DNA of 64,000 nt. Source: a virus. A model generated the notes under the pieces. It searched no databases. It saw nothing but the letters and a program-made list of their open reading frames with translations, and was not told the origin of the DNA. The position numbers and the translations under genes were made by a program. The stretch lies in IMG/VR virus record IMGVR_UViG_3300030061_003170; one strand, given 5' to 3'. Shown piece after piece: positions 15,100-61,289 of this stretch. Numbering within the stretch: position 1 is the stretch's first letter; every line of letters starts with the position of its first letter.

Positions 15100-15258
15100 G
15101 TTTTTTTCTAATTTTTGTTTAGCAAGCCTCACCTCTTCCAAGGCAGTCTTGATATTCCTATCATAATCATCAGCCATGGTACTCCACAACTTGGCACGCA
15201 TAAGTTTTTTTTCAATTGTGTCGAGAATCAACCACAATTTGTCATAAGTTTGGCTCAT
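15085..15258 (-). CDS. small hypothetical protein (57 aa, not in track)
   Basis: Manual translation MSQTYDKLWLILDTIEKKLMRAKLW..; fills gap between neighbours. Confidence 0.5.
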   Translation of the reverse strand: MSQTYDKLWLILDTIEKKLMRAKLWSTMADDYDRNIKTALEEVRLAKQKLEKNLTIK

Positions 15259-15484
15259 TTACTTTCTCCAAATAAATTTCATTTATTTCACTAATTGCAC
15301 CATCGTTCCACAATACCTTAATGACGTTTCTAGTTCCAATGTGAGAACGATAATAGTTAAATTTTATTTCTGAGATGATTCCTATACATCTTTTGTTTTT
15401 CAGTTCTTTTTGTATTGGACCAAGTTTTATAATAGTCTTTGAATTAGTAATTCTAACCAAGTCTCCAACTTCAAACTTTTCCAT
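15242..15484 (-). CDS. SH3/KOW-like small protein
   Basis: FEVGDLVRI..IGIISEI..VLWNDG..YLEKV. Confidence 0.6.
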   Translation of the reverse strand: MEKFEVGDLVRITNSKTIIKLGPIQKELKNKRCIGIISEIKFNYYRSHIGTRNVIKVLWNDGAISEINEIYLEKVNEPNL

Positions 15485-34418: not shown

Positions 34419-34510
34419 TCAGACCTCCAATGTTTGATGGTTACACAAGTAATGTATCACGCTGCTGTGATTTGTCAAGTAAAATGGCAAAGAAAAATGA
34501 ATAAAAGTGA

Positions 34511-34535
34511 ATGACCCCGGACTAGCCGGGGTCAT
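34511..34535 (-). terminator. 10-bp perfect hairpin after AAA gene
   Basis: ATGACCCCGG-N5-CCGGGGTCAT followed by T-rich tract on minus strand. Confidence 0.7.
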
Positions 34536-34542
34536 CAGCCAC

Positions 34543-35604
34543 TTACTTCTTGGTGGCTAACACTTCCATCATGAACTCCTTGACAGTCGGCAGGTCAGGA
34601 CCGAGATCAACTTTGTGGATACCACCGGCATTCTCGATAGCCTTTTCGCCACTGGTGATGTGCTTCCACAGGTTCATCGCTAACTCAGATGGCAACTGGA
34701 CCATGTACGTGGCAATGTTGACACGTTGGTTCTCGTCTAGTTCGGCATCGAAGCACTTTTGCTGTACCATACTCTCGATAAGAGCGTTGTGGTCGTTGAT
34801 CTTGAAGTCAACAACAAGGTCGTGCTTGCCGTCATCAATGATGTCCTCTGGGGTAACGATGGCCTTGTAGTTATCAACAAAGTCACGGAGAGCAACGGCA
34901 GCCTCGAAGCCGACAAAAGAACTGGCAACGTGGTACAGAGTTGGGGTCGCTTCGATTTTGCCGAGACCAGCGAGGGCCTTGTCCAATCGCTCCCAAGAAC
35001 GACGAGACGGATAGACCTTGTTAGGCTCGTAATCATCGGTGTGCTCAAGGTGCTGGTGATTGTTGTTGATGAAGTCCCAAACAACTTGCGATACACGACC
35101 ATCAGCCCAAGAGAGCCAGTCCTCGATAGTAGGGGACACGTCGAACACGGTGTAACGGTCTAGTTCAGCAGGGTCCATTTCACCAACCTGATACTGAGCA
35201 CCGTGTTCACCACCATTGACGGCAGCGAAGATAAGGGTGTCGGGGTGCAGTCTCTGACCAGCAATCTTGCGACTGTCGCACAACTCGAAGATACCTTGAC
35301 GTACCTCCATCGTAGCACGGTCAACCTCATCCAAGAACAGGATGACCGCTTCGTTGCAAGCGGTGGCAAGCCATTCTGGTGGTAGCCAAGTAGTGACATT
35401 GCCCTCGACCTTGGGCAGACCAAGCAAGTCACCCTCAGTCATCTGAGAAGCACGTCGTTCTACGACAGGGAGATCACGCTCTTCAGCATACTGATAGACG
35501 ATGGTAGACTTACCGATACCGTGACGGCCACGGATAAGTACAGGGTAGCGTGCATCAGTGATGACAGGCAGGACATTGAGCATAGTTTTGAAGTCGATTG
35601 ACAT
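34543..35604 (-). CDS. MoxR-like AAA+ ATPase
   Basis: GRHGIGKS Walker A, LFLDEVDRA Walker B, AAVN, DPAELDR, PSRRSW. Confidence 0.9.
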   Translation of the reverse strand: MSIDFKTMLNVLPVITDARYPVLIRGRHGIGKSTIVYQYAEERDLPVVERRASQMTEGDLLGLPKVEGNVTTWLPPEWLATACNEAVILFLDEVDRATMEVRQGIFELCDSRKIAGQRLHPDTLIFAAVNGGEHGAQYQVGEMDPAELDRYTVFDVSPTIEDWLSWADGRVSQVVWDFINNNHQHLEHTDDYEPNKVYPSRRSWERLDKALAGLGKIEATPTLYHVASSFVGFEAAVALRDFVDNYKAIVTPEDIIDDGKHDLVVDFKINDHNALIESMVQQKCFDAELDENQRVNIATYMVQLPSELAMNLWKHITSGEKAIENAGGIHKVDLGPDLPTVKEFMMEVLATKK

Positions 35605-35912
35605 AAGTAACCTCGCGGTTTTGGGTTGTTGTTTAGATTGTGTCTATATTATAACTAGTTTGAAAAGGTTTGTCAAGGAAAAAGATAAACTTTTTTTCAA
35701 GGTCTAACTTTCTTTCGGCAGGCTCGACGACTGCTTTCCTTGCGCTTGTCCTTGTGCCTACCAGCACCGGATCGTTGAAAGGCAGCAACAGCAACAAGGT
35801 TCCTGTTCTTCAGTGTTTTTGTCTTTTTCTTTTTCATTGTTCCCTCCGTTGATGTTAGTAATGTATCACGGTATTTAGATTTGTCAAGGAAAAAGATAAA
35901 GTTTTTTTGAGA

Positions 35913-36110
35913 TTATGCTATGACTTCGAGCGAACGGATGTTTACCCAAGTGCAAAGTGCTCCAGTTGGGCGGTTGAGCCATCTTACCTTTGCTTGCACA
36001 CAGGTTGTATCGACAACTAGGGCTAAGTATTGTCTATCAGTAAATCCATTCCTATCCACCCAACCGTATCTTACAAGATCCCCGACCCTTATCAAGTCGC
36101 CTATTTGCAT
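35913..36110 (-). CDS. SH3/KOW-like mini-protein
   Basis: MQIGDLIRVGDLV..LEVIA. Confidence 0.7.
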   Translation of the reverse strand: MQIGDLIRVGDLVRYGWVDRNGFTDRQYLALVVDTTCVQAKVRWLNRPTGALCTWVNIRSLEVIA

Positions 36111-36277
36111 ACTACCTCCAAGTCACGATTATCAGCCCCCCATCGCTGGCCAGTATCAATATAAGAGATCAGCCAATCGAATGAAGTTCCAATGGTTGTA
36201 ACATAATCCTTAGCAAGGATAATCGCTATTCTTCTTTTGCTGATTGAGCGATCAATAACTAAATCACCTACTTGCAT
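36101..36277 (-). CDS. SH3/KOW-like mini-protein (58 aa, not in track)
   Basis: MQVGDLVIDRSISKRRIAII..DLEVVCK*. Confidence 0.7.
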   Translation of the reverse strand: MQVGDLVIDRSISKRRIAIILAKDYVTTIGTSFDWLISYIDTGQRWGADNRDLEVVCK

Positions 36278-36447
36278 ATCTTCTCCAGTTGTTCAGGGTA
36301 TTTCCAGTTTGAACAATCTCCAACTAACCAACGAACTTTCAAGACAAGCGCGAGGTGGTCATTGAAACTTGTCTCTGTAATAATCCCGATGACAAGGGGT
36401 GTATTGTCACGATAGGTTATGTTTCTTACTAAATCGCCTACTTGCAT
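36268..36447 (-). CDS. SH3/KOW-like mini-protein (59 aa, not in track)
   Basis: MQVGDLVRNI..IGIITE..KVRWL..QLEKICK*. Confidence 0.7.
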   Translation of the reverse strand: MQVGDLVRNITYRDNTPLVIGIITETSFNDHLALVLKVRWLVGDCSNWKYPEQLEKICK

Positions 36448-36529
36448 TGTGTCTCCTTGTTTGTGTTACATAGGTAGTGTATCACGGTAGTAGGATTTGT
36501 CAAGAAAAAAGATAAAGTTTTTTTTGAGA

Positions 36530-36700
36530 TTATGCTACGACTTCGATTGCTTCGAAGTATACCCAACTTGAAAAAGTATCACCAGACGGAGAAGTGAACC
36601 AGTGAACATTAGCCTGAACACAGGTCGTATCAAGTACAAGGCCCAAGCGAGCAACAAAGTTAGGGTCAGGTCTGAGTGTTACTAAATCGCCTACTTGCAT
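36530..36700 (-). CDS. SH3/KOW-like mini-protein
   Basis: MQVGDLVTL..LGLVLD..VHWF..IEVVA*. Confidence 0.7.
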   Translation of the reverse strand: MQVGDLVTLRPDPNFVARLGLVLDTTCVQANVHWFTSPSGDTFSSWVYFEAIEVVA

Positions 36701-36906
36701 ACTAACTCCAACTCGTGCCATACGAACCATTCAAGGTTCTCTCCATCTATGTGTATCTTGAACAGTGTGCAGGGGGTCGGCTCTATGTGGTCATCCTTGG
36801 CCTCAATGATAATACCTATCTTGCCCTTGTAATGCTTTGCGTTGCTGGGGCCGAGAACGTAGGGCAAACGCTCTTCGTTGAACTTTACTAATGAACCTAC
36901 ATTCAT
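36691..36906 (-). CDS. SH3/KOW-like mini-protein
   Basis: MNVGSLVKF..IGIIIE..ELELVCK*. Confidence 0.7.
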   Translation of the reverse strand: MNVGSLVKFNEERLPYVLGPSNAKHYKGKIGIIIEAKDDHIEPTPCTLFKIHIDGENLEWFVWHELELVCK

Positions 36907-37079
36907 ACTACCTCCAAATAACGGCTATCTACGCCCAGTATGTCTCCGGTCACGAAGTAGAAAACACCCCAGTCAAACGGGGTTCCAATGTCTGTATAGA
37001 ACCCATTAGTGACAATCATCCCGATTGCTTGATTGTTATTACCTAATGAACGGTCAATAACTAAATCTCCTACTTGCAT
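36903..37079 (-). CDS. SH3/KOW-like mini-protein (58 aa, not in track)
   Basis: MQVGDLVIDRSLG..IGMIV..YLEVV*. Confidence 0.7.
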   Translation of the reverse strand: MQVGDLVIDRSLGNNNQAIGMIVTNGFYTDIGTPFDWGVFYFVTGDILGVDSRYLEVV

Positions 37080-37255
37080 ATTACCTCCAGATCACCTGTG
37101 TGTTCCCATGCCCTCAGTGATGCCACACCCAGTCCGTTAGGACAGAACCAATGGACCAAAACGCATCCGTTGTCTCTTTGTCCTTGTTCTAGGATAATAC
37201 CAATGCTGTACCCTCTCCCGCTAGGGCTTATCTGTACTAAATCACCTACTTGCAT
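37070..37255 (-). CDS. SH3/KOW-like mini-protein
   Basis: MQVGDLVQI..IGIILE..VHWF..DLEVICK*. Confidence 0.7.
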   Translation of the reverse strand: MQVGDLVQISPSGRGYSIGIILEQGQRDNGCVLVHWFCPNGLGVASLRAWEHTGDLEVICK

Positions 37256-37422
37256 ATTACCTCCAAGTCATTGGGTTGTTTCCAGTGTTTCATTCCGTTG
37301 CTGTACTGGACAAGGATGGGTGCGCCACCGACACGAGTGTTATCAATCACTATTCCAACCCAGTCTATCTTCATACCATCTGGGTATTCCTTCCTGTATC
37401 TTACCAGACTTCCTACTTCCAT
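37246..37422 (-). CDS. SH3/KOW-like mini-protein (58 aa, not in track)
   Basis: MEVGSLVRY..VGIVID..VQYSNG..DLEVICK*. Confidence 0.7.
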   Translation of the reverse strand: MEVGSLVRYRKEYPDGMKIDWVGIVIDNTRVGGAPILVQYSNGMKHWKQPNDLEVICK

Positions 37423-37482
37423 TATTGTCTCCGTTCTTGTTGGTTACATAGGTAATGTATCACGGTAGGAGTATTTGTCAAG

Positions 37483-37719
37483 TCAAAAGGCAAAGTTTTT
37501 TTCTTTTTTTTCAATGACCTCGAAGTCTTCGGCTTCCTCTTCCCATTGTTCTCCGTTGCACCACTGAATGAGATACTGACGGATGCCGATGAGAGAACAA
37601 TCACTTCCGTCATCCTCGGCAGGGTCGCGATAGTCCATCACAATGCCGATAAGTTTAGTGTTAGGGGTCCAGACCTCTCTTAGTTTTACTAGGTCGCCAA
37701 TCTCAATGTTATCCATCAA
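37483..37719 (-). CDS. SH3/KOW-like mini-protein
   Basis: IEIGDLVKL..IGIVMD..IQWCNG..DFEVI. Confidence 0.7.
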   Translation of the reverse strand: MMDNIEIGDLVKLREVWTPNTKLIGIVMDYRDPAEDDGSDCSLIGIRQYLIQWCNGEQWEEEAEDFEVIEKKEKNFAF

Positions 37720-37897
37720 TCACCTCCACATTCTTTTGTCGAACAAAACCCATTGAATGGTCGTTCCAGTAGATTTTGCACATTTGATACCTCTTTTCTG
37801 CCCAGTTCTGACCGAGCGTTTCAGTCCACATTTTTACTACGACACCTATCATTTCGGGACGGCCAGCCCTGTATTTTACTAAATCTCCTACTTGCAT
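37709..37897 (-). CDS. SH3/KOW-like mini-protein
   Basis: MQVGDLVKY..IGVVVK..IYWND..NVEVIDG*. Confidence 0.7.
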   Translation of the reverse strand: MQVGDLVKYRAGRPEMIGVVVKMWTETLGQNWAEKRYQMCKIYWNDHSMGFVRQKNVEVIDG

Positions 37898-38106
37898 AAT
37901 AACTCCAGCCATTCAGGTTCGTAGTGACATTCATTGCCGTTAGCCCATTGCACATTGACATACTCGTGGTCGCGGACACCATTGGGATGGTTCACTTGTC
38001 GCCCCCATTTCTTGGTCACGATACCGATGAGTTTTAGACCATCCTTGCCCTTGATGTACCCAGCCGATGAGGGCAGCATCACTAAATCTCCGACTTCTAT
38101 CTTCAT
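37888..38106 (-). CDS. SH3/KOW-like mini-protein
   Basis: IEVGDLVML..IGIVTK..VQWANG..WLELLCK*. Confidence 0.7.
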   Translation of the reverse strand: MKIEVGDLVMLPSSAGYIKGKDGLKLIGIVTKKWGRQVNHPNGVRDHEYVNVQWANGNECHYEPEWLELLCK

Positions 38107-38111
38107 TGTGT

Positions 38112-38378
38112 CTATCTCCATGTTTCACCTGTGCTAATGTTGGTTAGTGGAAAACCACCAGAGTTATGTTGTCTCCAACCACCGACGTGCTTAGGGCTGA
38201 GATAGATGTGTCTCGTATGGAAGTCGCTCACGTCTGGGTGTGGGGTAGGTATGTACAAGACCACGATAGCAAAGTCGGGCATCTGTGCCGTCAGTATCTC
38301 TTGCACAATACCAAACTCTTCCTCTGGTCCAAATGTGCATAGGTCAGAGACAGTAAATGGGATTGAATAATCAGTCAT
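38112..38378 (-). CDS. hypothetical early protein, possibly divergent SH3-like
   Basis: Promoter repeat + GGAG; FTVSDLCTF..FGIVQEI. Confidence 0.55.
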   Translation of the reverse strand: MTDYSIPFTVSDLCTFGPEEEFGIVQEILTAQMPDFAIVVLYIPTPHPDVSDFHTRHIYLSPKHVGGWRQHNSGGFPLTNISTGETWR

Positions 38379-38441
38379 TGTTTCTCCGTTGTTGGTTACA
38401 TTCATAATGTATCACGGTTGAAAGATTTGTCAAGGATTTTC

Positions 38442-38651
38442 TCAAACTTTTTTTATCTCGTACCTCTTCATCCTGAGTGTATCACCACTGGAGTACAATC
38501 CGACAATATTGAACCAGCGAATGTTTATTGGGTATTTCACCTCTGGTCGTTCACTGATTTCAACGATAACCCCCATCTTCCCACGAACTAAGTCGTTGCC
38601 TTTGTTCTTGTTGCCGGCTGCCGATAGTGTTACTAAATCGCCTACTTGCAT
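38442..38651 (-). CDS. SH3/KOW-like mini-protein
   Basis: MQVGDLVTL..MGVIVEI..IRWF..EIKKV*. Confidence 0.7.
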   Translation of the reverse strand: MQVGDLVTLSAAGNKNKGNDLVRGKMGVIVEISERPEVKYPINIRWFNIVGLYSSGDTLRMKRYEIKKV

Positions 38652-38794
38652 ATTACCTCCACGTTTCGCACCAGTACCCAAAATACAACACCATCACTCC
38701 AGCGCACCCCAACTCTATTGCCCAGCAGGCCAGTCTCTGTGATGATACCTATTCTGTTCATAATCTTATCCCTGACCAGTGATCCTATTTCCAT
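38642..38794 (-). CDS. SH3/KOW-like mini-protein (50 aa, not in track)
   Basis: MEIGSLVRD..IGIITE..VRWSDG..NVEVICK*. Confidence 0.7.
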   Translation of the reverse strand: MEIGSLVRDKIMNRIGIITETGLLGNRVGVRWSDGVVFWVLVRNVEVICK

Positions 38795-38803
38795 GCAGAC
38801 CTC

Positions 38804-39562
38804 CTACTTTACGAGTTTTATGTCACTTTCACAGACCCAAGTCTCATCAGATTGACCTGCACTAAATGCCACAATCTTGTACAGACGGGTGCTGCCTTTA
38901 GATTTGTGCATCTGGCGGCAGGCAAACGTAGCGTTTAGAACCTCGGCAACTAGGGCTGTCTTGTAAGGCTTTGCAACTTTACGGTCTTGATAGCCGTGCA
39001 GACCGTTACGAAACTCATCGTGACTGTAACTGATAATGCGCCAAGACGAGAATGTGGGAGCAGTTCCTCGTATGGACACTAGGTCACCTACCCCATACAG
39101 GGGGGTAGAGTTGAAGCAGGCCCACAGTTTATCACGCAGTTTGCTACCCTCCAATCTCTCAAGGCGCGGCATGTGGAGATCAATGTCATGACCTTTACGA
39201 TACATCCCTAACTGCCGTCGTAACTCCACCGCGCAGTTTCTGTACCATTGAATGTGGCCCTCGTTTGGGACACTACGTCGCGACACATAGAACAAGGTCA
39301 AAAAGTCAATCCATTTGAGAAACTGCTCGTCTTTAGCATCCCACAATGCTTGCCATTCGTTACGCTTTCTTACCTGCTCCTCGTACATTTCAACAGGGAA
39401 TGCTTCGATTTGCTCCTGACACCATTCAATCTGCCGAGAACTGATTTGTCCTTTCTCAAGGTACTGGTCAGCGATGCTTCGTAAAACGTGCGCCTTACTT
39501 GCTTTGCCAAGGCCCTCGCAAATGTCAGCAGTTTTTCTGATTTGTCCGATTGTGATAGTCAT
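38804..39562 (-). CDS. hypothetical protein with C-terminal SH3/KOW-like domain
   Basis: YGVGDLVSIR..ALVAEV..ESDIKLVK. Confidence 0.65.
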   Translation of the reverse strand: MTITIGQIRKTADICEGLGKASKAHVLRSIADQYLEKGQISSRQIEWCQEQIEAFPVEMYEEQVRKRNEWQALWDAKDEQFLKWIDFLTLFYVSRRSVPNEGHIQWYRNCAVELRRQLGMYRKGHDIDLHMPRLERLEGSKLRDKLWACFNSTPLYGVGDLVSIRGTAPTFSSWRIISYSHDEFRNGLHGYQDRKVAKPYKTALVAEVLNATFACRQMHKSKGSTRLYKIVAFSAGQSDETWVCESDIKLVK

Positions 39563-39636
39563 TTGACCTCCATCTTTCTTGGTTGTGTTTGTAATGTATC
39601 ACGCTGCTGACATTTGTCAAGGAAAAAGATAAAGTT

Positions 39637-39858
39637 TTAGAGAAAATCTTTGTGGAATGCGAGCAGAACGCTGTCAGGATCACGGAATGACCACATCCCT
39701 AACACGATTGTGTCGCCTGTGCGGTTGCACTTTATCTCAAAGTTATCGCCAATGACGACATTGTAGGTGAAGTTATCAGGACAATGATCGTAGATGTGAT
39801 TGAGTATGTCTATGGCTTCCTCAGTGGTTGCTCGGTATGGTTTTAGTTTACTAGTCAT
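39637..39858 (-). CDS. hypothetical protein
   Basis: GAGGAG RBS, MTSKL. Confidence 0.55.
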   Translation of the reverse strand: MTSKLKPYRATTEEAIDILNHIYDHCPDNFTYNVVIGDNFEIKCNRTGDTIVLGMWSFRDPDSVLLAFHKDFL

Positions 39859-40084
39859 TTGTACTCTCCTCGTTGTTAGTGGTTTCAGGGCGACCAAACC
39901 CTATTGGTGTTCTATCTTCTTTGTTTGGTTTTTTTGATGGTGGTGGACCAGCCAAGGCTCCAAGCATCGCTGCTGGTATTCCCATCGGTGCTGGTTGATT
40001 GAGGGTAACCATCATACCCATTACTTTCTTTAGCAGGTCATCACTTAGATTGATGCTAATGTTGATTTCGTTATTTGCTTCCAT
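39851..40084 (-). CDS. hypothetical protein
   Basis: GGAGG RBS, MEANN; C-terminal RTPIGF. Confidence 0.55.
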   Translation of the reverse strand: MEANNEINISINLSDDLLKKVMGMMVTLNQPAPMGIPAAMLGALAGPPPSKKPNKEDRTPIGFGRPETTNNEESTND

Positions 40085-40316
40085 TGTTTCCTCCGTCCTC
40101 TGGTTGTTTGGGCATAGTACAGAGACCATTCTGTACCATACTTGCTGCTGCTCGGCCATAGAAACCCTGTAGTTTCCAAGCATGCTCAGTGTCGATTAGC
40201 CACTGCCACGTTGCAATGTACTTGTCCTCCTCTACTTCCACCTCACCCTCAGCAATCTGCACTGCTTCAGTTAGTGTGAGGTTGTAAGGGTTTTTGATTT
40301 TCTTTTTCTTACCCAT
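40071..40316 (-). CDS. hypothetical phage protein
   Basis: WQWLIDTEHAWKLQGFYGRAA. Confidence 0.65.
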   Translation of the reverse strand: MGKKKKIKNPYNLTLTEAVQIAEGEVEVEEDKYIATWQWLIDTEHAWKLQGFYGRAAASMVQNGLCTMPKQPEDGGNNGSK

Positions 40317-40379
40317 CGTATCTCCTGTGTTCGGGGGGGTACTAGTAATGTATCACGTCTCAAAGATTTGTCAAGTATT

Positions 40380-40619
40380 TTAGGAAACTTTTCTTAGCCA
40401 ACTGTAATGTATGTCGCGTGTCTCACCATTGAGCAGAATGACCACATCATTATCGCGACAGTTATCAGGTGCTTCCACAACATACCCGACCACAAACATC
40501 GGCATATCAGAGCCAAAAAACAAAGTAGTCTTTACGATTACAAGATCGCCTGTTTGGGGCACTATCCCGTAGTCAAATCTGTAAGGTGTTGCGTTTTCGT
40601 AGTGAGCGAATGAAGCCAT
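40380..40619 (-). CDS. SH3/KOW-like mini-protein
   Basis: PQTGDLVIV..VGYVVE..WLRKVS*. Confidence 0.65.
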   Translation of the reverse strand: MASFAHYENATPYRFDYGIVPQTGDLVIVKTTLFFGSDMPMFVVGYVVEAPDNCRDNDVVILLNGETRDIHYSWLRKVS

Positions 40620-40673
40620 GTTTTCCTCCTTGGTGTTAGTAATGTAACACGCTGCTTATGTTTGTCAAGTATT

Positions 40674-40826
40674 TTAGGAAACTTTTATCAAAGACCTCGG
40701 AGAACACAGACACACACCACCATCAACAAACTCTACCACGTAAAATGGATAGTTGTCTTTTGCTAACCTTGTTATGACACCAAATCTCCTATCCTCGGAG
40801 TGCATCACTAAATCACCTATTTTCAT
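40674..40826 (-). CDS. SH3/KOW-like mini-protein (50 aa, not in track)
   Basis: MKIGDLVMH..FGVITR..VEFVDG..SLIKVS*. Confidence 0.7.
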   Translation of the reverse strand: MKIGDLVMHSEDRRFGVITRLAKDNYPFYVVEFVDGGVCLCSPRSLIKVS

Positions 40827-40984
40827 AATACATCCAGTTCTCTCTCATCAAAAACTCTCTTTTCCCCATTTATCATAAGGGTTACCAACCTAGGGTACAT
40901 AGGATAATCCCAACCCAACACTGTACCGACATGAACTTTAGATCCAGAGAGACCCTTTACTATAACTAAATCACCTATTTTCAT
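40823..40984 (-). CDS. SH3/KOW-like mini-protein
   Basis: MKIGDLVIV..VGTVLG..ELDVL*. Confidence 0.7.
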   Translation of the reverse strand: MKIGDLVIVKGLSGSKVHVGTVLGWDYPMYPRLVTLMINGEKRVFDERELDVL

Positions 40985-41175
40985 AATACATCCAAAACAC
41001 GGAATGGAACCCAACCGGCTCTCATTTTTTGAAACCAGTGGACCCTAATGATTGGTGCTTTCTTGCCCCGTACCTCCAGCACCACACCAAGAGATTTTCC
41101 TTTTATCGGTTCCCCGGTGACTGTACAGAAAGTTCTGGATCGTCTATTGTATTTTACCAAATCACCTATTTTCAT
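40981..41175 (-). CDS. SH3/KOW-like mini-protein
   Basis: MKIGDLVKY..LGVVLEV..VHWF..VLDVL*. Confidence 0.7.
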   Translation of the reverse strand: MKIGDLVKYNRRSRTFCTVTGEPIKGKSLGVVLEVRGKKAPIIRVHWFQKMRAGWVPFRVLDVL

Positions 41176-41336
41176 AATACCTCCAGTAAAGCAGCAACCC
41201 ACCATTCACGCTCACCAGCAAACTGGCCACCTGTCCATTGGACATAGATCATGTCATCATCTTTTCCATTACCAATCTGCACAACTAGACCAATCTCTCG
41301 CTTACAGGGTAGGCACACTATATCTCCTATCTGCAT
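41172..41336 (-). CDS. SH3/KOW-like mini-protein (54 aa, not in track)
   Basis: MQIGDIVCL..IGLVVQI..VQWTGG..LLEVL*. Confidence 0.7.
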   Translation of the reverse strand: MQIGDIVCLPCKREIGLVVQIGNGKDDDMIYVQWTGGQFAGEREWWVAALLEVL

Positions 41337-41482
41337 AATAACTCCACTTCATCACCATAGATTAGTTCATATTCGCCATTACCAAGAAATATGGTGGCCA
41401 TATCAGAGATCAGACCAAACACTTCTGTGACAACACCGATGCGGCCATCGTATGTGTATCGTACTAAATCGCCTACTTTCAT
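41327..41482 (-). CDS. SH3/KOW-like mini-protein (51 aa, not in track)
   Basis: MKVGDLVRY..IGVVTEV..EVELLCR*. Confidence 0.7.
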   Translation of the reverse strand: MKVGDLVRYTYDGRIGVVTEVFGLISDMATIFLGNGEYELIYGDEVELLCR

Positions 41483-41649
41483 GCCAACACCTTACACTGG
41501 ATGGGGGTCAATATAATCTCTGCACCGTTTGCAAGTATTACTGTGTGTTGTGCTACAAACCCCGGTCTCTTTTCAATCTTCACGATAGTACCGAACTTCC
41601 CATTGCAACGTCCGTGGAATAGAACCCTTATCAAATCGCCTATTTGCAT
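41479..41649 (-). CDS. SH3/KOW-like mini-protein (56 aa, not in track)
   Basis: MQIGDLIRV..GKFGTIVKI..QCKVLA*. Confidence 0.7.
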   Translation of the reverse strand: MQIGDLIRVLFHGRCNGKFGTIVKIEKRPGFVAQHTVILANGAEIILTPIQCKVLA

Positions 41650-41725
41650 TGTGTCTCCGTTCTTATTGGTTACATAGGTAATGTATCACGGTGGAAGTAT
41701 TTGTCAAGGAAAAAGACAAACTTTT

Positions 41726-41911
41726 TTATATTTTTCTCAAATCCTCAGCATCATAAAAGTATTGAAACCCAAACCATCGGGGCCAATACACTTTGACTGA
41801 CTTCGTTGTTCTACTGATTTCCACGACGATACCCAAGGAACGCTCGCCTTTCGGTTCATCAATGTAAATGTGTGGGTCGCAATGCGTAACTAGATCGCCA
41901 ACTTCGAACAT
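41726..41911 (-). CDS. SH3/KOW-like mini-protein
   Basis: MFEVGDLVTH..LGIVVEI..VYWP..DLRKI*. Confidence 0.7.
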   Translation of the reverse strand: MFEVGDLVTHCDPHIYIDEPKGERSLGIVVEISRTTKSVKVYWPRWFGFQYFYDAEDLRKI

Positions 41912-42072
41912 TATAGTTTCTCCAAACTGCGATAATCAACATAGAACTTTCGAGAATGGTCAGCAGACTTGACATAATAACTGTCCTCGTAAATGTCGCA
42001 CTGGCCAGTAATGATACCAATGAGCCAGCCATAATGCTTTGATTGCCATCTAACTAAATCACCTACTTGCAT
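41911..42072 (-). CDS. SH3/KOW-like mini-protein
   Basis: MQVGDLVRW..IGIITG..SLEKL*. Confidence 0.7.
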   Translation of the reverse strand: MQVGDLVRWQSKHYGWLIGIITGQCDIYEDSYYVKSADHSRKFYVDYRSLEKL

Positions 42073-42242
42073 ACTAACTCCAGATCGTAATAAGGGAACC
42101 AGTCCCATTGTTTCTCAGTGTTTGCGAAAAAAACAAGAAAGGAGTTAGGCAACTGCTTTTTGTTGCGACACTTAGTAATGATCCCAACTTGGTTTGTTCT
42201 CGTGAATAAGTTTGTGACTTTCACTAAGTCTCCTACTTGCAT
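42063..42242 (-). CDS. SH3/KOW-like mini-protein (59 aa, not in track)
   Basis: MQVGDLVKV..VGIITK..DLELVCK*. Confidence 0.7.
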   Translation of the reverse strand: MQVGDLVKVTNLFTRTNQVGIITKCRNKKQLPNSFLVFFANTEKQWDWFPYYDLELVCK

Positions 42243-42319
42243 CTTGTTCTCCTTTCTTCGTCTTGTGTAAGTAATGTATCACGAACAAAAGATTTGTCAA
42301 GGAAAAAAGATAAAGTTTT

Positions 42320-42487
42320 TTAGAGTGTCTCACACCAATCCTCAGGGACAGTGTAAATCTTCCCATCCTGTGGGCAGTAGACTTGCAAGAAGAATGGGCT
42401 AACGTGCATAACCAAAGCGATGAAAGAGAAGTCTGGTGCTTCATCCGGGGTGTCAACATGCACTTTGATAAGGTCACCTGCTGTCAT
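42320..42487 (-). CDS. SH3/KOW-like mini-protein (55 aa, not in track)
   Basis: MTAGDLIKV..IALVMHV..WCETL*. Confidence 0.6.
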   Translation of the reverse strand: MTAGDLIKVHVDTPDEAPDFSFIALVMHVSPFFLQVYCPQDGKIYTVPEDWCETL

Positions 42488-42665
42488 TGATCACTTCTAA
42501 GTCAACAGATGGCCATCGGTTCCTTGTACCATCACCCTTTGCAACCTCAACAATGTAAACTTTATCGTAGATACCGGGACATAGTCTACTTTCAGTCCGC
42601 TGAAGTGACATAATATGTCCAAACCAGTGCTGTCGTTTGTGTCTTACTAGGTCACCGACTTTCAT
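42474..42665 (-). CDS. SH3/KOW-like mini-protein
   Basis: MKVGDLVRH..FGHIMS..DLEVI. Confidence 0.7.
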   Translation of the reverse strand: MKVGDLVRHKRQHWFGHIMSLQRTESRLCPGIYDKVYIVEVAKGDGTRNRWPSVDLEVINDSR

Positions 42666-43584
42666 TGCTCTGCTCCGGATCTTCGTAACGTGCAGCCCAT
42701 CCATCAATCAGATCAGACAGACCGTTCTTTTTTATCCACTCAAGGTTTCTTTTCTTAGACAGCCAATCAAAGGCATCTTGTCTCGCCTGTTGTACCCACC
42801 CCTCATCTAGGGGAGTAGGAGACGGAGAGATGACCTGTGAAATGTATGGCTTTCGAGATGGAGTGTACCTTACATCTGCATCTACTTTAGGTAATACACC
42901 CTTATGTAGTTCAATCTGGACCTTGCCACGGAAGCCGTCTGGTGTGATGAATGATACTTCAATCGGTGTCCTAAGTTCCCAAGACAGTGCTCTATTGTTG
43001 GCCAAAGCCCAGTCCGATGTTACACTGACCTTTTCCCAGTTTACGTCAGTTACCGTGCAAATACCATAAGAGTCTTGCACATATTCTCCGCTTGAATAAT
43101 GATACTTATGTACTTTAGGTTCGATCAAAGCCCCAACATCAATACCATGCTCAGAAACAAGCAGGTCATAGACATACTTTCGGATGGCTTGGTTCGCTCT
43201 GTTTGCTTTCTCACGAAACACTAACAACTCTGCACAGGTTCTACGAGTGTGTCCGGTTTCTCCGCAAAACCCACACTTGCGTTCAGCCTTGGCCCTACGG
43301 GGAGTACTCTCTCTTTCTTGTGCTCTCTTTTGTTTGTGACTAGCAATCATAGTTGCCTGATACCACTCACCCCAAAACCTTGGGTACTTGAACGGGTGCA
43401 TCCTGTGATAGGGCGATTGGGCAGTATGAACCCAGCAATCAGGATCTTTGAGAGGAACTTCCATTCTCTGCCAAGATGCCCAGTCCGGAGCAACGTGTGG
43501 GCACTTTGTGACATTATGCCCCGGCTGTCTACAATAACTGCAAGAGTTAGGTGAGCGTTTATCCTTTTGATCGTAAATCTGCAT
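42652..43584 (-). CDS. double CCHC zinc-knuckle protein
   Basis: CSYCRQPGHNVTKC and CGFCGETGHTRRTC. Confidence 0.75.
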   Translation of the reverse strand: MQIYDQKDKRSPNSCSYCRQPGHNVTKCPHVAPDWASWQRMEVPLKDPDCWVHTAQSPYHRMHPFKYPRFWGEWYQATMIASHKQKRAQERESTPRRAKAERKCGFCGETGHTRRTCAELLVFREKANRANQAIRKYVYDLLVSEHGIDVGALIEPKVHKYHYSSGEYVQDSYGICTVTDVNWEKVSVTSDWALANNRALSWELRTPIEVSFITPDGFRGKVQIELHKGVLPKVDADVRYTPSRKPYISQVISPSPTPLDEGWVQQARQDAFDWLSKKRNLEWIKKNGLSDLIDGWAARYEDPEQSNESR

Positions 43585-43664
43585 TATGCCCTCCAAGGCT
43601 ATGCGGTTGTTGGTTACATAGATAATGTATCACGGTAGTAGGATTTGTCAAGTAAAAAGGGAAA

Positions 43665-43964
43665 CTATTTTTTCTTTTCTTTGAACATAATGTCTAGTAG
43701 TCCGTATGGAACGTTGTAGTAGATACATCGCCAGCCCATAAATCTAACTGGTAGATCAGCACCCTCTTTGTATGATGATGGTACAATCTTCCTATAGCCG
43801 GCTGGACCCTCTGGTAATGTGTCCGATCCCTCCGCATAAACACACAGTGCCCCATCTTTTTGCTTTATCTCAAACGCGCCATCGGTCTGGTCGAGTATGT
43901 GTTTTGTCATTGCACGATGCGCTTCTTCCCAAGGTTCTTTTTTACTGAATGCTAGATTGGCCAT
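43665..43964 (-). CDS. hypothetical protein
   Basis: AGGAGG RBS. Confidence 0.6.
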   Translation of the reverse strand: MANLAFSKKEPWEEAHRAMTKHILDQTDGAFEIKQKDGALCVYAEGSDTLPEGPAGYRKIVPSSYKEGADLPVRFMGWRCIYYNVPYGLLDIMFKEKKK

Positions 43965-43977
43965 TGGCCCTCCTGTG

Positions 43978-44163
43978 TTAGTCCCTGTATCCAGGGGAGT
44001 AAGGTATTAGTTCATAAGCATATTCCAAGACATGCTCGTCTACTTTAGCGTAAAACACGAGATAGATAAGGCCATCAAAGTCATTATCATCAACCATAAC
44101 TTCGGTAACTAAACCAATGCCTAGGTCAGGATCAATAACAAGGTCTCCTATCTCAAACTCCAC
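43978..44163 (-). CDS. SH3/KOW-like mini-protein
   Basis: FEIGDLVID..IGLVTEV..YLVFY. Confidence 0.65.
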   Translation of the reverse strand: MEFEIGDLVIDPDLGIGLVTEVMVDDNDFDGLIYLVFYAKVDEHVLEYAYELIPYSPGYRD

Positions 44164-44164
44164 A

Positions 44165-44392
44165 TCAGCCCTCCGCGATTAGAACTCCGCTCTCGCGTGC
44201 GCCCTCTATCAAAAGCAGGATTGCGTGCCAAGCACTCTCTTGTTGGTCCTTTGGTAGTGTCTCAATCATCTGCATACTAGTAACTAGTAAGTGGGTGAGA
44301 GTAAATCTTTCGCCCATCTCTTTCATTTCTTTCTCAATACCTGTAAGTCTTGTCTCGTTCAACACTTTGTACTCCTTTTTTATTTGTGTCAA
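44165..44392 (-). CDS. hypothetical protein (start uncertain)
   Basis: ORF directly behind promoter repeat. Confidence 0.5.
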   Translation of the reverse strand: MTQIKKEYKVLNETRLTGIEKEMKEMGERFTLTHLLVTSMQMIETLPKDQQESAWHAILLLIEGARESGVLIAEG

Positions 44393-44420
44393 TAATATTG
44401 TAACACGTTTGAAAAACTTG

Positions 44421-44591
44421 TCAAGCGATAACTGTTGTTTTCCAATACCTCAAATCAAAATCAGCGACCTTACCACCATCATACATAAACTTACAGAAAA
44501 GATCAGAGTGATAGGTTGAACCTAAGTAAACGCCAATCATCCGTAGTTGTTCGCATCTGGAAACTATCTGTACTAAATCACCTACCTGCAT
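44421..44591 (-). CDS. SH3/KOW-like mini-protein
   Basis: MQVGDLVQI..IGVYLG. Confidence 0.65.
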   Translation of the reverse strand: MQVGDLVQIVSRCEQLRMIGVYLGSTYHSDLFCKFMYDGGKVADFDLRYWKTTVIA

Positions 44592-44752
44592 ATTACCTCG
44601 CAATACTGTTTGGACCACCAACGAGTATCATTCTCGTTTGGTATCCAAACCTCAATGTGGTGAGATACTGATGGACCATCGGGCGAAACATAAATAACTA
44701 TTCCTATCGTACCGTTCGATTTGTGAAACACTAAAGAGCCAACACTAACCAT
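44582..44752 (-). CDS. SH3/KOW-like mini-protein (56 aa, not in track)
   Basis: MVSVGSLVFH..IGIVIYV..IEVW..YCEVICR*. Confidence 0.65.
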   Translation of the reverse strand: MVSVGSLVFHKSNGTIGIVIYVSPDGPSVSHHIEVWIPNENDTRWWSKQYCEVICR

Positions 44753-44949
44753 CACAAACGCTCCAGTTCTTCTTGTAGTGCTTCTAAAAGTTGTCCGTCT
44801 GAGGCTGTAACTTCATAAAACATAGCACCGTCCTCTAAATAGATTGCGCCTGTTACATGGCCAATACCCTCTCGCCAAGACCAGAAAGAACCAGAGCCAT
44901 CATAACCCATTAGTATCCTGTACTTCACCAGATCGCCTACACTAAACAC
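44752..44949 (-). CDS. SH3/KOW-like mini-protein
   Basis: FSVGDLVKY..IGHVTG..YEV..ELERL*. Confidence 0.65.
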   Translation of the reverse strand: MFSVGDLVKYRILMGYDGSGSFWSWREGIGHVTGAIYLEDGAMFYEVTASDGQLLEALQEELERL

Positions 44950-44958
44950 TTTTGCTCC

Positions 44959-45135
44959 CTATAGCACCTCAAGCACAACGTCTATGAATACTCTACAAAA
45001 CCCTTTCTTGAACCAAAAGACATCTGCTGTCCTGAATGGGTCAGAATATGTAACTACCATGCCGACACCCCAATCCTGTACAAACTCTGGCTCGTAAGTT
45101 TCACTACATAGGATTACAAGGTCGCCTACATTCAA
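44959..45135 (-). CDS. SH3/KOW-like mini-protein (58 aa, TTG start, not in track)
   Basis: AAGGAG + MNVGDLVIL..VGMVVT..VFWF..VLEVL*. Confidence 0.65.
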   Translation of the reverse strand: MNVGDLVILCSETYEPEFVQDWGVGMVVTYSDPFRTADVFWFKKGFCRVFIDVVLEVL

Positions 45136-45443
45136 TGGCTGCTCCTTGTTGATAATGTAACACGTTCATCATCATTGTCAAGGTGTTTTCTAGTCTTTTT
45201 TTTATTATTCATATAAACATCGTATGGCACGAGTACAAACATAGCATCCCAGCCAGTAACTATATCCTTGCCGTGAGGCATCATAACAATGTAAAGCGGG
45301 TATCCACCGGGATCATAATCATCCTTTACCGCTTCTACTACAATACCAACCTCATCGTGCGTACCATCAATAACATCCATCCAAACAACTAAATCACCCG
45401 GGCTGTATGTGTATCCACGGTGGTCGACTCGAGGTTTTCTCAT
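45132..45443 (-). CDS. SH3/KOW-like protein
   Basis: YSPGDLVVW..VGIVVE..YIV. Confidence 0.6.
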   Translation of the reverse strand: MRKPRVDHRGYTYSPGDLVVWMDVIDGTHDEVGIVVEAVKDDYDPGGYPLYIVMMPHGKDIVTGWDAMFVLVPYDVYMNNKKKTRKHLDNDDERVTLSTRSSH

Positions 45444-50119: not shown

Positions 50120-51688
50120 TCAGTCCGAAACAATAGCATGCGAAGTTGTCAGTAAAGTTCCTGCTGCTGATGCAGCATTCTTCAAAGCCGAGGTTGTAAC
50201 TTTACAAGGGTCGATAATACCTGACTCGTACATATTGGTTATTTTTCTTCTCAAGAAGTCATAGCCATTATCACCTGTCTCATCTTTAATCTTTGAGACA
50301 ATAATATCAGCAGACTCTCCAGCATTTGTTGCCATTTGTCTGATTGGTGCTTGGCATGCCATGAGAATAACTTGTGCCCCAATTGATTGTTCATCATTAT
50401 CTGTCTCAACGAACAAGTCGGTTGTCGCACGTAACAGGGCCACGCCCCCACCCGGGAGGGTACCTAGGTCCCTTGCGGCCCTAACGGCCTCCAGTGCATC
50501 ATCAATACGATGCTTCTTCTCAATCATTTCGATTTCTGTGGCTGCTCCGACTTTGATGACTGCGACTCCCGAAGCAAGTCGAGTGATACGTTCTTGAAGT
50601 CGTTCACACTCAGATAGGTTGTCAGTCTGTTGTATCTCGTTCTTAATCGCCTCAATGCGCGTATCGATCTCCTCACCATTACCTTTTCCTCCAATGATTG
50701 TTGTCCATCCTTTCATGATCCTAATGTTTTTACATCCACCAAATTGAGGTAACTCAATCTCTTTCAAGAGCAGACCATCCTCCCTGGTGATAAATGTTGC
50801 ACCAATTGTGGCGCAAAGGTCTCTAAGGATATTTCTTCTTTCTTCTCCGTACTTTGGAGACTTAACGGCACAGATTTTCATTGTTCCACGTACAGCGTTG
50901 GCAATCAAAGCAGCAAGTGCTTGTCCTTCAAAGTCATTACCAATAATGAGAAGCGGACGGTTGTCTCTTGCTGCAATCTCTAGAGTTGGCATGATCTGAT
51001 CTATTTGTTCAATCTTTTCATCAGTAACAAGAACCAGTGGGTTGTCGTAATCAACAGTCCCAGTCCTCTCGTTGTTGATAAACTTGCTAGAAACATACCC
51101 AGAATCAAATCTAAAGCCCTCAATCAAGTCAAGAGAGGTCTCCATGCTTCGTGCTTCTTCCACAAGAACAGAGCCATCCTTGCCTGCCTTATCAACTGCT
51201 GTTGCAATCAGTGTGCCAATCGCTTCATCATTATTTGCTGAGATTGTGGCAATGTGCTTAATATCATCAACTGTCTGAATTGGTCGCGACATGTCCGTCA
51301 GACGTTCGCAAACTGCTTCAACCGCCTTGTCCATACCTCTCTTCATTTCCACAGGGGAAACACCAGATACGAGGTATTGCTGTGCAGTCTTAAGGATGCT
51401 GCGCGCAAGTACAGTTGCGGTGGTTGTTCCGTCACCAGCAACGCTGACTGATTGCTCTGCCGCTTGCTTGATGACTTGCGCACCAAGGTTCATGAACGGA
51501 TCTTCGCAGGTAACAAACTTTGCTACGGTCACTCCGTCTTTTGTAATTACAGGAACGTCTTGCCCCTTGTGATATAATGCTACGTTACGCCCACGGGGGC
51601 CTAGGGTAGTAGCAACGTTATCTGCTAAAAGATCAACGCCCTCAATGATTTTCGCATTAAGGGGTTGACCGTTCTTAAAATGTTTCAC
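50120..51688 (-). CDS. groEL: chaperonin GroEL
   Basis: TLGPRGRNV, ITKDGVTVAK, AGDGTTTATVLA, EGFRFDSGY, GGGVAL, GIIDP. Confidence 0.97.
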   Translation of the reverse strand: MKHFKNGQPLNAKIIEGVDLLADNVATTLGPRGRNVALYHKGQDVPVITKDGVTVAKFVTCEDPFMNLGAQVIKQAAEQSVSVAGDGTTTATVLARSILKTAQQYLVSGVSPVEMKRGMDKAVEAVCERLTDMSRPIQTVDDIKHIATISANNDEAIGTLIATAVDKAGKDGSVLVEEARSMETSLDLIEGFRFDSGYVSSKFINNERTGTVDYDNPLVLVTDEKIEQIDQIMPTLEIAARDNRPLLIIGNDFEGQALAALIANAVRGTMKICAVKSPKYGEERRNILRDLCATIGATFITREDGLLLKEIELPQFGGCKNIRIMKGWTTIIGGKGNGEEIDTRIEAIKNEIQQTDNLSECERLQERITRLASGVAVIKVGAATEIEMIEKKHRIDDALEAVRAARDLGTLPGGGVALLRATTDLFVETDNDEQSIGAQVILMACQAPIRQMATNAGESADIIVSKIKDETGDNGYDFLRRKITNMYESGIIDPCKVTTSALKNAASAAGTLLTTSHAIVSD

Positions 51689-61237: not shown

Positions 61238-61289
61238 GTTGTCCTCCATGAATGTAATGTATCACGTTGTTGGTTTTTGTCAAGTTATT

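What the first reader, a model, noticed from the sequence alone, without database searches (positions are those of the whole stretch)
36091..44601. Triple-coded ~30-bp gene junction: a frame-safe crossover point for mini-gene cassettes
Seen: about 14 junctions share TGGAGGTARTATGCAAGTAGGYGATTTAGT on the minus strand. In one frame this is the upstream gene's end (TTG GAG GTA ATA TGC AAG TAG = LEVICK*, or LEVL/LEVV ending at the TGA of ATGA). GGAGGT is the Shine-Dalgarno, and in another frame it is the next gene's start (MQVGDLV). The 120-180 bp between junctions is essentially unalignable. Inference: the array is built as repeat-variable-repeat, like an integron or CRISPR array but with coding repeats. 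Crossover between any two junctions deletes, inserts or swaps whole genes and always regenerates an intact first strand, last strand, RBS and translational coupling. An excised circle would be a complete gene. No recombinase is visible in the window. The alternative is independent selection for RBS plus fold, without shuffling.
Basis: partly seen in the sequence, partly recalled or inferred. Interest (0 to 1): 0.85.

Follow-up and report, generated by a model that had tools for sequence, protein, structure and literature searches.

The report
Phage mini-gene cassettes swapped at coding junctions
An uncultured marine T4-like phage carries about 30 tiny related genes joined by a shared ~30-base junction, and comparison with sister strains from the same ocean samples shows that whole genes are inserted, deleted and moved by crossovers inside that junction.

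Summary
The 30-nt motif occurs 8 times at ≤3 mismatches and 14 times at ≤5. All copies are on the minus strand, and shuffled sequence gives none. The motif joins about 28-31 paralogous genes of 50-77 aa (35913-45443). Their predicted fold is a five-strand SH3/Tudor-like barrel. They sit behind 14 repeated sigma70-type early promoters.

- **Order is not fixed.** Gene order and content differ between the window and its closest relatives.
- **Cassette-sized homology.** Single cassettes are 96-98% identical between phages that are otherwise 70-80% alike. The homology starts and stops inside the junctions.
- **A sister strain.** This strain (~97-98% identical, found in four independent Tara/JGI assemblies) has one cassette about 6 kb away at another junction and lacks another cassette. 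The joints lie in 11-34 nt of junction identity, and reading frames are kept.
- **Second crossover site.** A ~70-nt promoter repeat also served as a crossover site.

No recombinase is in the window. All five near-complete relatives searched encode a RecA/UvsX-type recombinase and a gp23-type capsid protein.

The most likely mechanism is general homologous recombination on short repeats. This is a coding-sequence variant of T4 PeSL/Botstein "linker" shuffling, not an integron-like system. Selection of the junction for recombination, and circular intermediates, remain untested. Other first-stage readers of this scan noted the same stretch of this genome; none was followed up, and the scan has no note of it on other DNA.

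The parts
35913..45443 (-). Array of about 28-31 paralogous mini-genes (50-103 aa, SH3/Tudor-like barrel). It is interrupted by a few unrelated early genes: 38112-38378, 38804-40316, 42652-43584 and 43665-44365.
   Evidence: AlphaFold2 pLDDT 86; fold matches to PWWP/Tudor/KOW barrels, TM 0.65-0.74
37236..37265 (-). Junction with an exact match to the motif: end of m37422 (..LEVICK*), SD GGAGGT, start of m37255 (MQVGDLV).
38632..38661 (-). Junction, exact match (m38794 / m38651).
37060..37089 (-). Junction, 1 mismatch (m37255 / m37079).
36681..36710 (-). Junction, 1 mismatch (m36906 / m36700).
42053..42082 (-). Junction, 1 mismatch (m42242 / m42072). In the sister strain the m36277 cassette sits at this junction.
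36258..36287 (-). Junction (m36447 / m36277), the left border of the mobile cassette.
36091..36120 (-). Junction (m36277 / m36110), the right border of the mobile cassette.
36101..36277 (-). Cassette m36277 (58 aa). The identical protein occurs in at least 4 different neighbour contexts in ocean metagenomes. It is 96-98% identical in nucleotides in phages whose flanks are 68-81% identical or unalignable.
40965..40994 (-). Junction of the MKIGDLV sub-dialect (m41175 / m40984). It is 34 nt identical to the next junction and served as a crossover partner in the deletion of m40984.
40807..40836 (-). Junction of the MKIGDLV sub-dialect (m40984 / m40826), the second crossover partner.
40823..40984 (-). 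Cassette m40984 (53 aa), absent from the sister strain.
41156..41185 (-). Junction (m41336 / m41175), 4 mismatches.
37878..37907 (-). Junction (m38121 / m37897), 3 mismatches.
36887..36916 (-). Junction (m37079 / m36906), ATGA-overlap type, 5 mismatches.
44572..44601 (-). Junction (m44755 / m44591), 3 mismatches.
36428..36545 (-). Early-promoter repeat P36480 (A-tract, TTGACAAAT, TG-extended TACACT) with leader and the start of m36447. It was a crossover partner for loss of the unit m36447-m36277-m36110 in the sister strain.
35832..35929 (-). Early-promoter repeat P35880, the second crossover partner (about 70 nt shared).
41493..41727 (-). Promoter P41680 plus cassette m41649, absent from the sister strain. 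No clear repeat lies at the joint.
36702..37394 (-). Block m37422-m37255-m37079-m36906. In the sister strain it is replaced by a different 1.3-kb mosaic of cassettes. Both borders lie in junctions.
34451..45181 (-). Span holding 14 sigma70-type early promoters. Their -35 elements start at 45181, 44424, 43651, 42300, 41707, 40668, 40374, 39620, 38433, 37481, 36503, 35887, 35676 and 34478.
34543..35604 (-). AAA_5 (MoxR-like) ATPase. This conserved flank was used as the anchor to fetch 80 related loci.

Best explanation
The region is the hyperplastic early region of an uncultured marine T4-superfamily myovirus of about 190 kb.

**Anatomy.** It holds about 30 paralogous mini-genes. Each encodes one small five-strand SH3/Tudor-like barrel. 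The genes are packed head to tail in translationally coupled runs behind repeated strong early promoters. The first strand (MQVGDLV) and the last strand (LEV) are the conserved parts of the fold. The LEV codons contain the SD of the next gene, and stop and start overlap. Every gene boundary is therefore the same roughly 30-nt sequence.

**Mechanism.** These short direct repeats, and the ~70-nt promoter repeats, act as substrates for general homologous recombination. The likely enzyme is the phage's own UvsX/RecA-type system, acting during replication or coinfection. Crossovers between non-allelic junctions delete, insert, move or exchange whole cassettes. They automatically restore frame, SD and stop/start overlap.

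**Shown:** the anatomy, the mosaicism, the position of the joints, and exchange between strains and lineages.

**Inferred:** the enzyme, translational coupling, early expression, and the role of the proteins. Their role is probably as variable binders for host takeover or counter-defence.

Junction conservation is primarily a by-product of fold and translation constraints. Recombination then homogenises it within lineages.
For: **Scale and relatives.**
- The ATPase anchor fetched 80 related IMG/VR loci. With the window they hold 784 motif-bearing mini-genes.
- The window, L001 (ATPase 92% aa) and L002 (80%) share only some cassettes, and in different order.

**Cassette-sized homology with sharp borders.**
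- Window 36278-36094 matches L002 8266-8450 at 96%, and the flanks are unalignable.
- L002 7615-7791 matches L003 7376-7552 at about 96%, although the ATPases of these two phages are only 73% identical (aa). Residue 2 follows the local dialect.
- One search lists further single-cassette matches between diverged loci, at least three of them with both ends at junctions.

**Breakpoint statistics.**
- 125 of 289 unique homology ends lie at family junctions, against 4.3% for random positions.
- Family junctions are 24% of gene starts but hold 61% of the ends that lie at gene boundaries.
- Adjacency is lost more often across mini-gene junctions (56%) than across other tight gene boundaries (26%) in close pairs.

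**Strain level.**
- L084, L091 and L093 are 100% identical to the window.
- A sister strain (L085, L087/L097, L088/L098, L096; four assemblies) is about 97-98% identical to it.
- It differs by 8 joints within 6 kb, with none in 7.7 kb upstream or 3.8 kb downstream.
- The joints lie in 22 nt (ATGCAAGTAGGTGATTTAGTTA), about 11 nt, 34 nt and about 70 nt of parental identity.

**Other support.**
- Junction dialects are lineage-specific while bodies stay at about 29% identity. This is the signature of concerted evolution.
- An internal old duplication carries a cassette in/del exactly at junctions.
- Five of five near-complete relatives encode RecA/UvsX (PF00154, 118-136 bits) and gp23.
- T4-type recombination works on patches under 50 bp, as stated in PMC2839356.
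Against: - The recombinase was found in relatives, not in this phage's own genome, which is not held.
- No direct observation of recombination exists.
- Selection against broken genes would also concentrate surviving breakpoints at gene boundaries.
- Mini-genes may simply be more dispensable than other genes.
- Two events (the P41680+m41649 in/del and the deletion scar at m38121) show little or no junction homology. Illegitimate or microhomology events therefore occur as well.
- Within the window itself, synonymous conservation beyond amino-acid, SD and overlap constraints is weak.
- The polarity of each event, and whether third-party phages were donors, cannot be told.
Confidence: 0.78

Rival explanations
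1. Illegitimate (non-homologous or microhomology) recombination generates random indels. Purifying selection keeps only events that remove or add whole genes. The junction matters only as a gene boundary, not as a recombination substrate.
For: Some events lack junction homology: the P41680+m41649 in/del and the m38121 scar with GGAGA-type microhomology. 79 of 289 homology ends lie at other gene boundaries and 60 elsewhere. This is the Hendrix-type moron model as summarised in PMC2839356.
Against: The joints are seamless and sit inside 11-34 nt of parental identity. Ends per boundary are about 5 times higher at family junctions than at other boundaries. Cassettes moved between non-allelic junctions keep the 10-nt overlap exactly. 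Lineage-specific junction dialects need homogenisation.
Confidence: 0.1
2. A dedicated site-specific system (integron-like integrase, or a nuclease that recognises the junction) excises and inserts cassettes, possibly as circles.
For: The repeat-variable-repeat layout resembles an integron. An excised circle would carry a complete ORF with its SD (logic only). A free-standing HNH endonuclease sits in the array of the sister strain.
Against: No integrase or recombinase family was found among the window's large ORFs. The junction DNA has no hairpin (z from -1.2 to +1.1). Crossover points vary within the junction, lying before, at or after the ATG. Promoter repeats serve as crossover sites as well.
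Confidence: 0.05
3. No shuffling occurs. The array grew by tandem duplication and divergence, and the junction is conserved only for RBS and fold.
For: The fold and SD constraints are real. Within the window most junction bases are explained by amino acids, the SD and the overlapping stop. An old internal duplication exists.
Against: Order and content differ among close relatives and strains. The identical cassette occurs in at least 4 contexts. Near-identical cassettes occur in diverged phages.
Confidence: 0.03
4. The apparent rearrangements are metagenome assembly chimeras formed at the repeats.
For: All relatives are metagenomic contigs, and repeats can mislead assemblers.
Against: The repeats (≤34 nt and about 70 nt) are shorter than the k-mer sizes written in two of the contig names (k127, k147). 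The sister arrangement recurs in four independent assemblies from different samples and pipelines. The window arrangement recurs in three.
Confidence: 0.02

Closest known systems
PeSL (promoter-early stem-loop) mediated modular shuffling in T4-type phages (Arbiol et al. 2010, PMC2839356; Comeau et al. 2014, PMC4122927)
   Same: Both are hyperplastic early regions of a T4-superfamily phage, rich in small ORFan genes. In both, short conserved repeats with a strong sigma70-like promoter are spread through the region. Indels and replacements between close relatives have their ends in the repeats. No dedicated recombinase is known, and general phage recombination on patches under 50 bp is invoked. 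One event here (loss of P36480-m36110) is a promoter-repeat crossover of exactly this type.
   Different: Most crossover sites here lie inside coding sequence: the last strand, SD, overlapping stop/start and first strand of a paralogous protein family. The unit is a single promoterless gene. The promoter repeats mostly lack the stem-loop terminator. Mini-circles were shown for PeSLs and are untested here.
Botstein/Campbell modular evolution with conserved 'linker' sequences (as reviewed in PMC2839356)
   Same: Interchangeable modules are flanked by conserved sequences. These target homologous exchange and guarantee correct placement and expression.
   Different: The modules here are single genes of about 170 bp from one protein family, and the linker is itself coding. 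The evidence is at strain level in natural populations.
Integron gene-cassette arrays
   Same: Repeat-variable-repeat layout, mostly promoterless cassettes read from upstream promoters, and cassette gain, loss and reordering.
   Different: There is no IntI-type integrase and no attC hairpin. The repeats are coding, the crossover position is variable, and the cassettes are all paralogues of one fold.
Cassette switching at conserved coding motifs in polymorphic toxin loci (Rhs/CDI; PMC3482391), and T-even internal-protein loci (Repoila 1994, as cited in PMC2839356)
   Same: Variable protein-coding cassettes are exchanged by recombination at conserved sequences next to or within the coding region.
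   Different: Those systems swap C-terminal domains of one large gene, or genes flanked by promoter-like elements. Here whole mini-genes are bounded on both sides by the same dual-use junction.

Membership tests
PeSL-type regulatory cassette (T4-type phages) | Repeated strong sigma70-like early promoter in a hyperplastic region | tested here: met
   14 promoters with TTGACA, a 16-nt spacer and TG-extended TACATT, plus an upstream A/T tract; about 60 nt conserved
PeSL-type regulatory cassette (T4-type phages) | Adjacent G+C-rich stem-loop terminator as part of the repeat | tested here: not met
   Terminator-like sites are not enriched (9 found, 9.4 expected). Only the promoter at 34478 has one upstream, at 34510-34536.
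PeSL-type regulatory cassette (T4-type phages) | Indel or replacement end points between close relatives lie in the repeats | tested here: met
   The unit P36480-m36110 was lost by a crossover in a ~70-nt promoter repeat. An HNH gene is inserted at promoter P38410. Most other joints lie in the coding junction instead.
PeSL-type regulatory cassette (T4-type phages) | Extrachromosomal mini-circles formed by exchange between neighbouring repeats | not testable with these tools
Integron | Adjacent IntI tyrosine recombinase | tested here: not met
   No recombinase family was found among the large ORFs scanned with Pfam and PHROGs. Small ORFs and the rest of the genome were not scanned.
Integron | attC sites: imperfect inverted repeats that fold as single-stranded hairpins | tested here: not met
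   Six junctions folded as ssDNA give z-scores from -1.2 to +1.1.
T4 superfamily (gp23-type capsid, UvsX-type recombinase) | gp23-like major capsid protein and RecA/UvsX homologue | tested here: met
   PF07068 and PF00154 score over cut-off in 5 of 5 near-complete relatives. The window's own genome is not held, so membership is by kinship of the ATPase anchor (57-92% aa).
SH3-like small beta-barrel (Tudor/PWWP/KOW/CPH) | Five-strand barrel; match to a curated family | tested here: inconclusive
   The AlphaFold2 model has five strands and pLDDT 86. Best PDB matches are PWWP, Tudor, Spt5-KOW and the eukaryotic ribosomal protein of the uL24 family, with TM 0.65-0.74 but E of only 0.02-0.08. No Pfam or PHROG family scores over cut-off; the Cul7/CPH match is 14.9 bits against a cut-off of 25.

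The most novel reading that the evidence does not exclude
The junction is more than a by-product. Together with the promoter repeats it would form an evolved, recombinase-independent 'coding integron'. This would be a standardised linker that lets a clade of ocean phages trade single SH3-like binder genes as plug-and-play cassettes, possibly through one-gene circles. The result would be a shared, rapidly reassorting library of host-takeover or counter-defence proteins.
Probability: 0.2. Interest if true: 0.85.

Novelty: new variant of a known kind. Interest (0 to 1): 0.7.

Why it matters
How phage accessory regions gain, lose and reorder genes without wrecking expression is a long-running question. 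One view is Botstein's linker model. The other is illegitimate recombination followed by selection.

This locus gives an unusually clean natural case at single-gene resolution. One ~30-nt coding junction is repeated hundreds of times across a clade of ocean phages. The recombinant joints are visible between co-occurring strains.

It shows that a conserved protein terminus plus SD can double as a recombination linker, so a whole protein family becomes modular. It also singles out a large family of early mini-proteins of unknown function (1812 clusters at 50% identity match the profile) as fast-turnover candidates for host-interaction functions.

Tried and rejected
- **Isolate relatives.** megablast of the array and tblastn of a mini-protein against isolated phages found nothing. 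The ATPase and DnaE match isolates only at about 30% identity.
- **Locus search with the family alignment.** The search for related loci with the mini-protein alignment failed because no stretch was conserved enough. The flanking ATPase was used instead.
- **Own genome.** No whole genome is held for the window.
- **Reads.** Split reads and circle junctions could not be looked for, and read laying was not used.
- **First adjacency test.** Using 60% orthogroups, it did not discriminate between boundary types because divergence and rearrangement were confounded. It was replaced.
- **Ortholog test of dialect switching.** At ≥60% identity it had only one informative group. Looser pairs were used instead.
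- **Near-identical IMG/VR pairs.** They showed no structural events apart from window/sister strain and L002/L089. Generality at strain level therefore rests on few pairs.
- **Other searches.** The atlas search and the earlier-findings search by sequence added nothing about function. Literature searches found no description of this family or of coding junction linkers.

Full report
**Observation.** It occurs 14 times at ≤5 mismatches and 18 times at ≤9. All copies are on the minus strand, none on the plus strand, and shuffles give 0-1.

ORF listing and motif-anchored translation show 28 minus-strand genes of 50-77 aa between 45135 and 35913. They begin M(Q/K/E/N)(V/I)G(D/S)L(V/I) and mostly end LEV or LEL. 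A few divergent members (45443, 42487, 40619) and one distant copy (15242-15475) also exist.

In ten junctions the downstream start ATGCAAGTAG or ATGCAAATAG also supplies the upstream ..CK* or ..CR* tail and stop, a 10-nt overlap. In six junctions the overlap is ATGA. GGAGGT, which encodes part of LEV, is the SD.

No base carries three codes, so 'triple-coded' is loose. The anatomy is otherwise as described. Bodies average 29% amino-acid identity over aligned columns, and the 32-nt junction averages 66% nucleotide identity.

**Context.** All genes in the window run on the minus strand. The window encodes:
- a DnaE-type polymerase, GroEL, a prohead protease, an endolysin, PhoH, a dUTPase-family enzyme and UvdE, and it has one tRNA;
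- no recombinase.

The array lies among 14 near-identical sigma70-type early promoters: an A/T tract, TTGACAAAT, a 16-nt spacer and TG-extended TACATT. Terminators are not enriched. No isolated phage is close.

The flanking AAA_5 ATPase retrieved 80 IMG/VR loci from ocean metagenomes, many from contigs of 183-205 kb. Five near-complete relatives all encode a gp23-type capsid protein and a RecA/UvsX homologue. The clade is therefore an uncultured marine branch of the T4 superfamily.

**The proteins.** An AlphaFold2 model built from the 21-member alignment is confident (pLDDT 86) and has five strands. Its best structural neighbours are PWWP, Tudor, Spt5-KOW and the eukaryotic ribosomal protein of the uL24 family (TM 0.65-0.74, weak E-values).

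No Pfam or PHROG family scores over cut-off. A profile search finds 1812 clusters at 50% identity with E ≤ 0.001. Most are 48-70 aa. The top multi-repeat hits are RING-CPH proteins, that is, distant cellular relatives of the fold. The conserved junction corresponds to the first and last strands of the barrel.

**Comparative test of the interpretation.** The 81 loci hold 784 motif-bearing mini-genes. Three lines of evidence follow.

*Order and content.* Against L001 (ATPase 92% aa) and L002 (80%), only some cassettes are shared, and their order differs. Modules have moved, neighbours are swapped, and one gene crosses the ATPase.

*Cassette-sized homology.*
- Window 36278-36094 is 96% identical to L002 8266-8450. 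The identity starts at one junction and stops at the next, between unalignable flanks.
- L002 7615-7791 is about 96% identical to L003 7376-7552, although the ATPases of these two phages are only 73% identical (aa). Residue 2 is Q or K according to the resident genome.
- One search lists further matches of the same kind between diverged loci, at least three of them with both ends at junctions.

*Breakpoint positions.*
- Of 289 unique homology ends, 125 lie within -30 to +20 of the junction glycine codon, against 4.3% for random positions.
- 79 lie at other gene boundaries (10.3% expected), 25 at promoters (3.8%) and 60 elsewhere (82%).
- Family junctions make up 456 of 1919 gene starts, so ends per boundary are about five-fold higher there.
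- Adjacency is lost across 56% of mini-gene junctions against 26% of other tight boundaries in close pairs.

**Strain-level evidence.** Exact-protein look-ups show that the window is 100% identical to Tara Oceans contigs (L084, L091, L093). A sister strain about 97-98% identical occurs in four independent assemblies (L085, L087/L097, L088/L098, L096).

Over 7.7 kb upstream and 3.8 kb downstream the two strains are collinear. Within about 6 kb of the array they differ by eight joints:
- **Cassette m36277.** In the sister strain it sits between m42242 and m42072. The left joint lies inside the 22-nt shared ATGCAAGTAGGTGATTTAGTTA. The right joint lies inside about 11 nt around the ATG. Its home unit is absent there, lost through a crossover within the ~70-nt promoter repeat.
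- **Cassette m40984.** It is missing through a crossover in a 34-nt identical junction.
- **A four-cassette block.** It is replaced by a 1.3-kb mosaic of other cassettes. Both borders are in junctions, and one piece is 98-99% identical to a cassette in loci of an L002-like lineage (L089, L090).
- **Promoter plus cassette (P41680+m41649).** This in/del has no clear repeat at the joint.
- **HNH endonuclease gene.** It is inserted at a promoter leader.
- **An extra cassette plus promoter in the sister strain.** It corresponds to a deletion scar that explains the odd MEIDT extension of m38121.

Reading frames, SD and overlaps are intact at all junction joints. The identical 58-aa protein is found in at least four neighbour contexts. 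Assembly chimeras are unlikely. The repeats are shorter than the k-mer sizes written in two of the contig names (k127, k147), and both arrangements recur in independent assemblies.

**Nucleotide-level conservation.** Within the window the glycine wobble is free, GAT is at background, and only TTA (16 of 27 against about 20%) and GTA are enriched. A general AT-rich bias of 5' codons explains part of this.

Across the clade the bias is strong and is not explained by AT preference. V3 is GTC in 58% against 21%, and G4 is GGT in 78% against 31%. Genomes carry lineage-specific 'dialects': ATG CAA GTA here and in L001 and L002, ATG AAA GTC in most others, and CAA GTC in a few. Their cassette bodies remain at about 29% identity. 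That pattern is concerted evolution of the junction, as expected if crossovers occur in it.

**Mechanism and rivals.** The best reading is general homologous recombination on short direct repeats. The T4-type system is known to use patches under 50 bp (PMC2839356).
- **Dedicated integron-like system.** This is unlikely. The junction forms no hairpin, no integrase is present in the window, crossover points vary, and promoter repeats serve as well.
- **Illegitimate recombination plus selection.** It contributes, as two events show. It does not explain seamless joints in shared identity, the per-boundary enrichment or the dialects.
- **The 'no shuffling' alternative.** It is contradicted.
- **Still open.** Whether the junction is maintained for recombination, rather than exploited by it, and whether circles form.

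An old internal duplication with a cassette in/del exactly at junctions adds within-genome evidence. It follows a lead from an earlier first-stage note.

**Comparison with known systems and verdict.** The closest known system is PeSL-mediated modular shuffling in T4-type phages and the Botstein linker model (PMC2839356, PMC4122927). The promoter repeats here resemble PeSLs but lack the stem-loop.

The new element is that the main linker is coding sequence shared by a paralogous protein family, which makes single promoterless genes the unit of exchange. I rate it a new variant of a known kind, real and well supported by comparative data, with interest 0.7.

Noticed in passing
L097:4872-5911 (sister strain); window 38374-38394: A free-standing HNH endonuclease gene (259 aa) and a 61-aa gene are inserted in the sister strain. 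They lie exactly between the leader of promoter P38410 and the ATG of the 88-aa gene, which looks like a homing-endonuclease insertion.
   Followed up: partly
window 37888-38121; L097:6205-6420: The odd N-terminal extension MEIDT of m38121 is a deletion scar. The sister strain has an extra 48-aa cassette plus a promoter there. The window keeps only the ATGGAGATAG of that cassette, fused to the promoter leader.
   Followed up: yes
window 56786-60238, 50120-51688, 60317-61249: A DnaE-type Pol III alpha (1150 aa), a GroEL chaperonin and a UvdE UV-endonuclease occur in a phage whose relatives carry a gp23-type capsid protein. This is an unusual replication gene set for the T4 superfamily.
   Followed up: no
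window 15242-15475: A lone 77-aa member of the mini-protein family (MEKFEVGDLV...) lies about 20 kb from the array, next to a tRNA-Arg(TCT) at 14177-14250.
   Followed up: no
window 40674-41185: Three adjacent cassettes (m41175, m40984, m40826) share a distinct sub-dialect (GGATGTATT ATG AAA ATA GGT GAT TT, ATGA overlap, ..LDVL* ends). This may be a block imported from another lineage or locally homogenised.
   Followed up: no
L002:7957-8079: In L002 a junction and the first four codons of a cassette are fused directly to a promoter repeat. The cassette body was deleted between a junction and a promoter.
   Followed up: partly
proteins P0001, P0022: The best-scoring hits to the mini-protein profile are long RING-finger proteins with 6-8 tandem Cul7/CPH domains. 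This suggests a distant link between this phage family and the CPH/DUF1918 barrels.
   Followed up: partly
window 42652-43584: A 310-aa early protein with two CCHC/C2H2-like zinc knuckles sits inside the array. It occupies a different position in L001 than in the window and L002.
   Followed up: no
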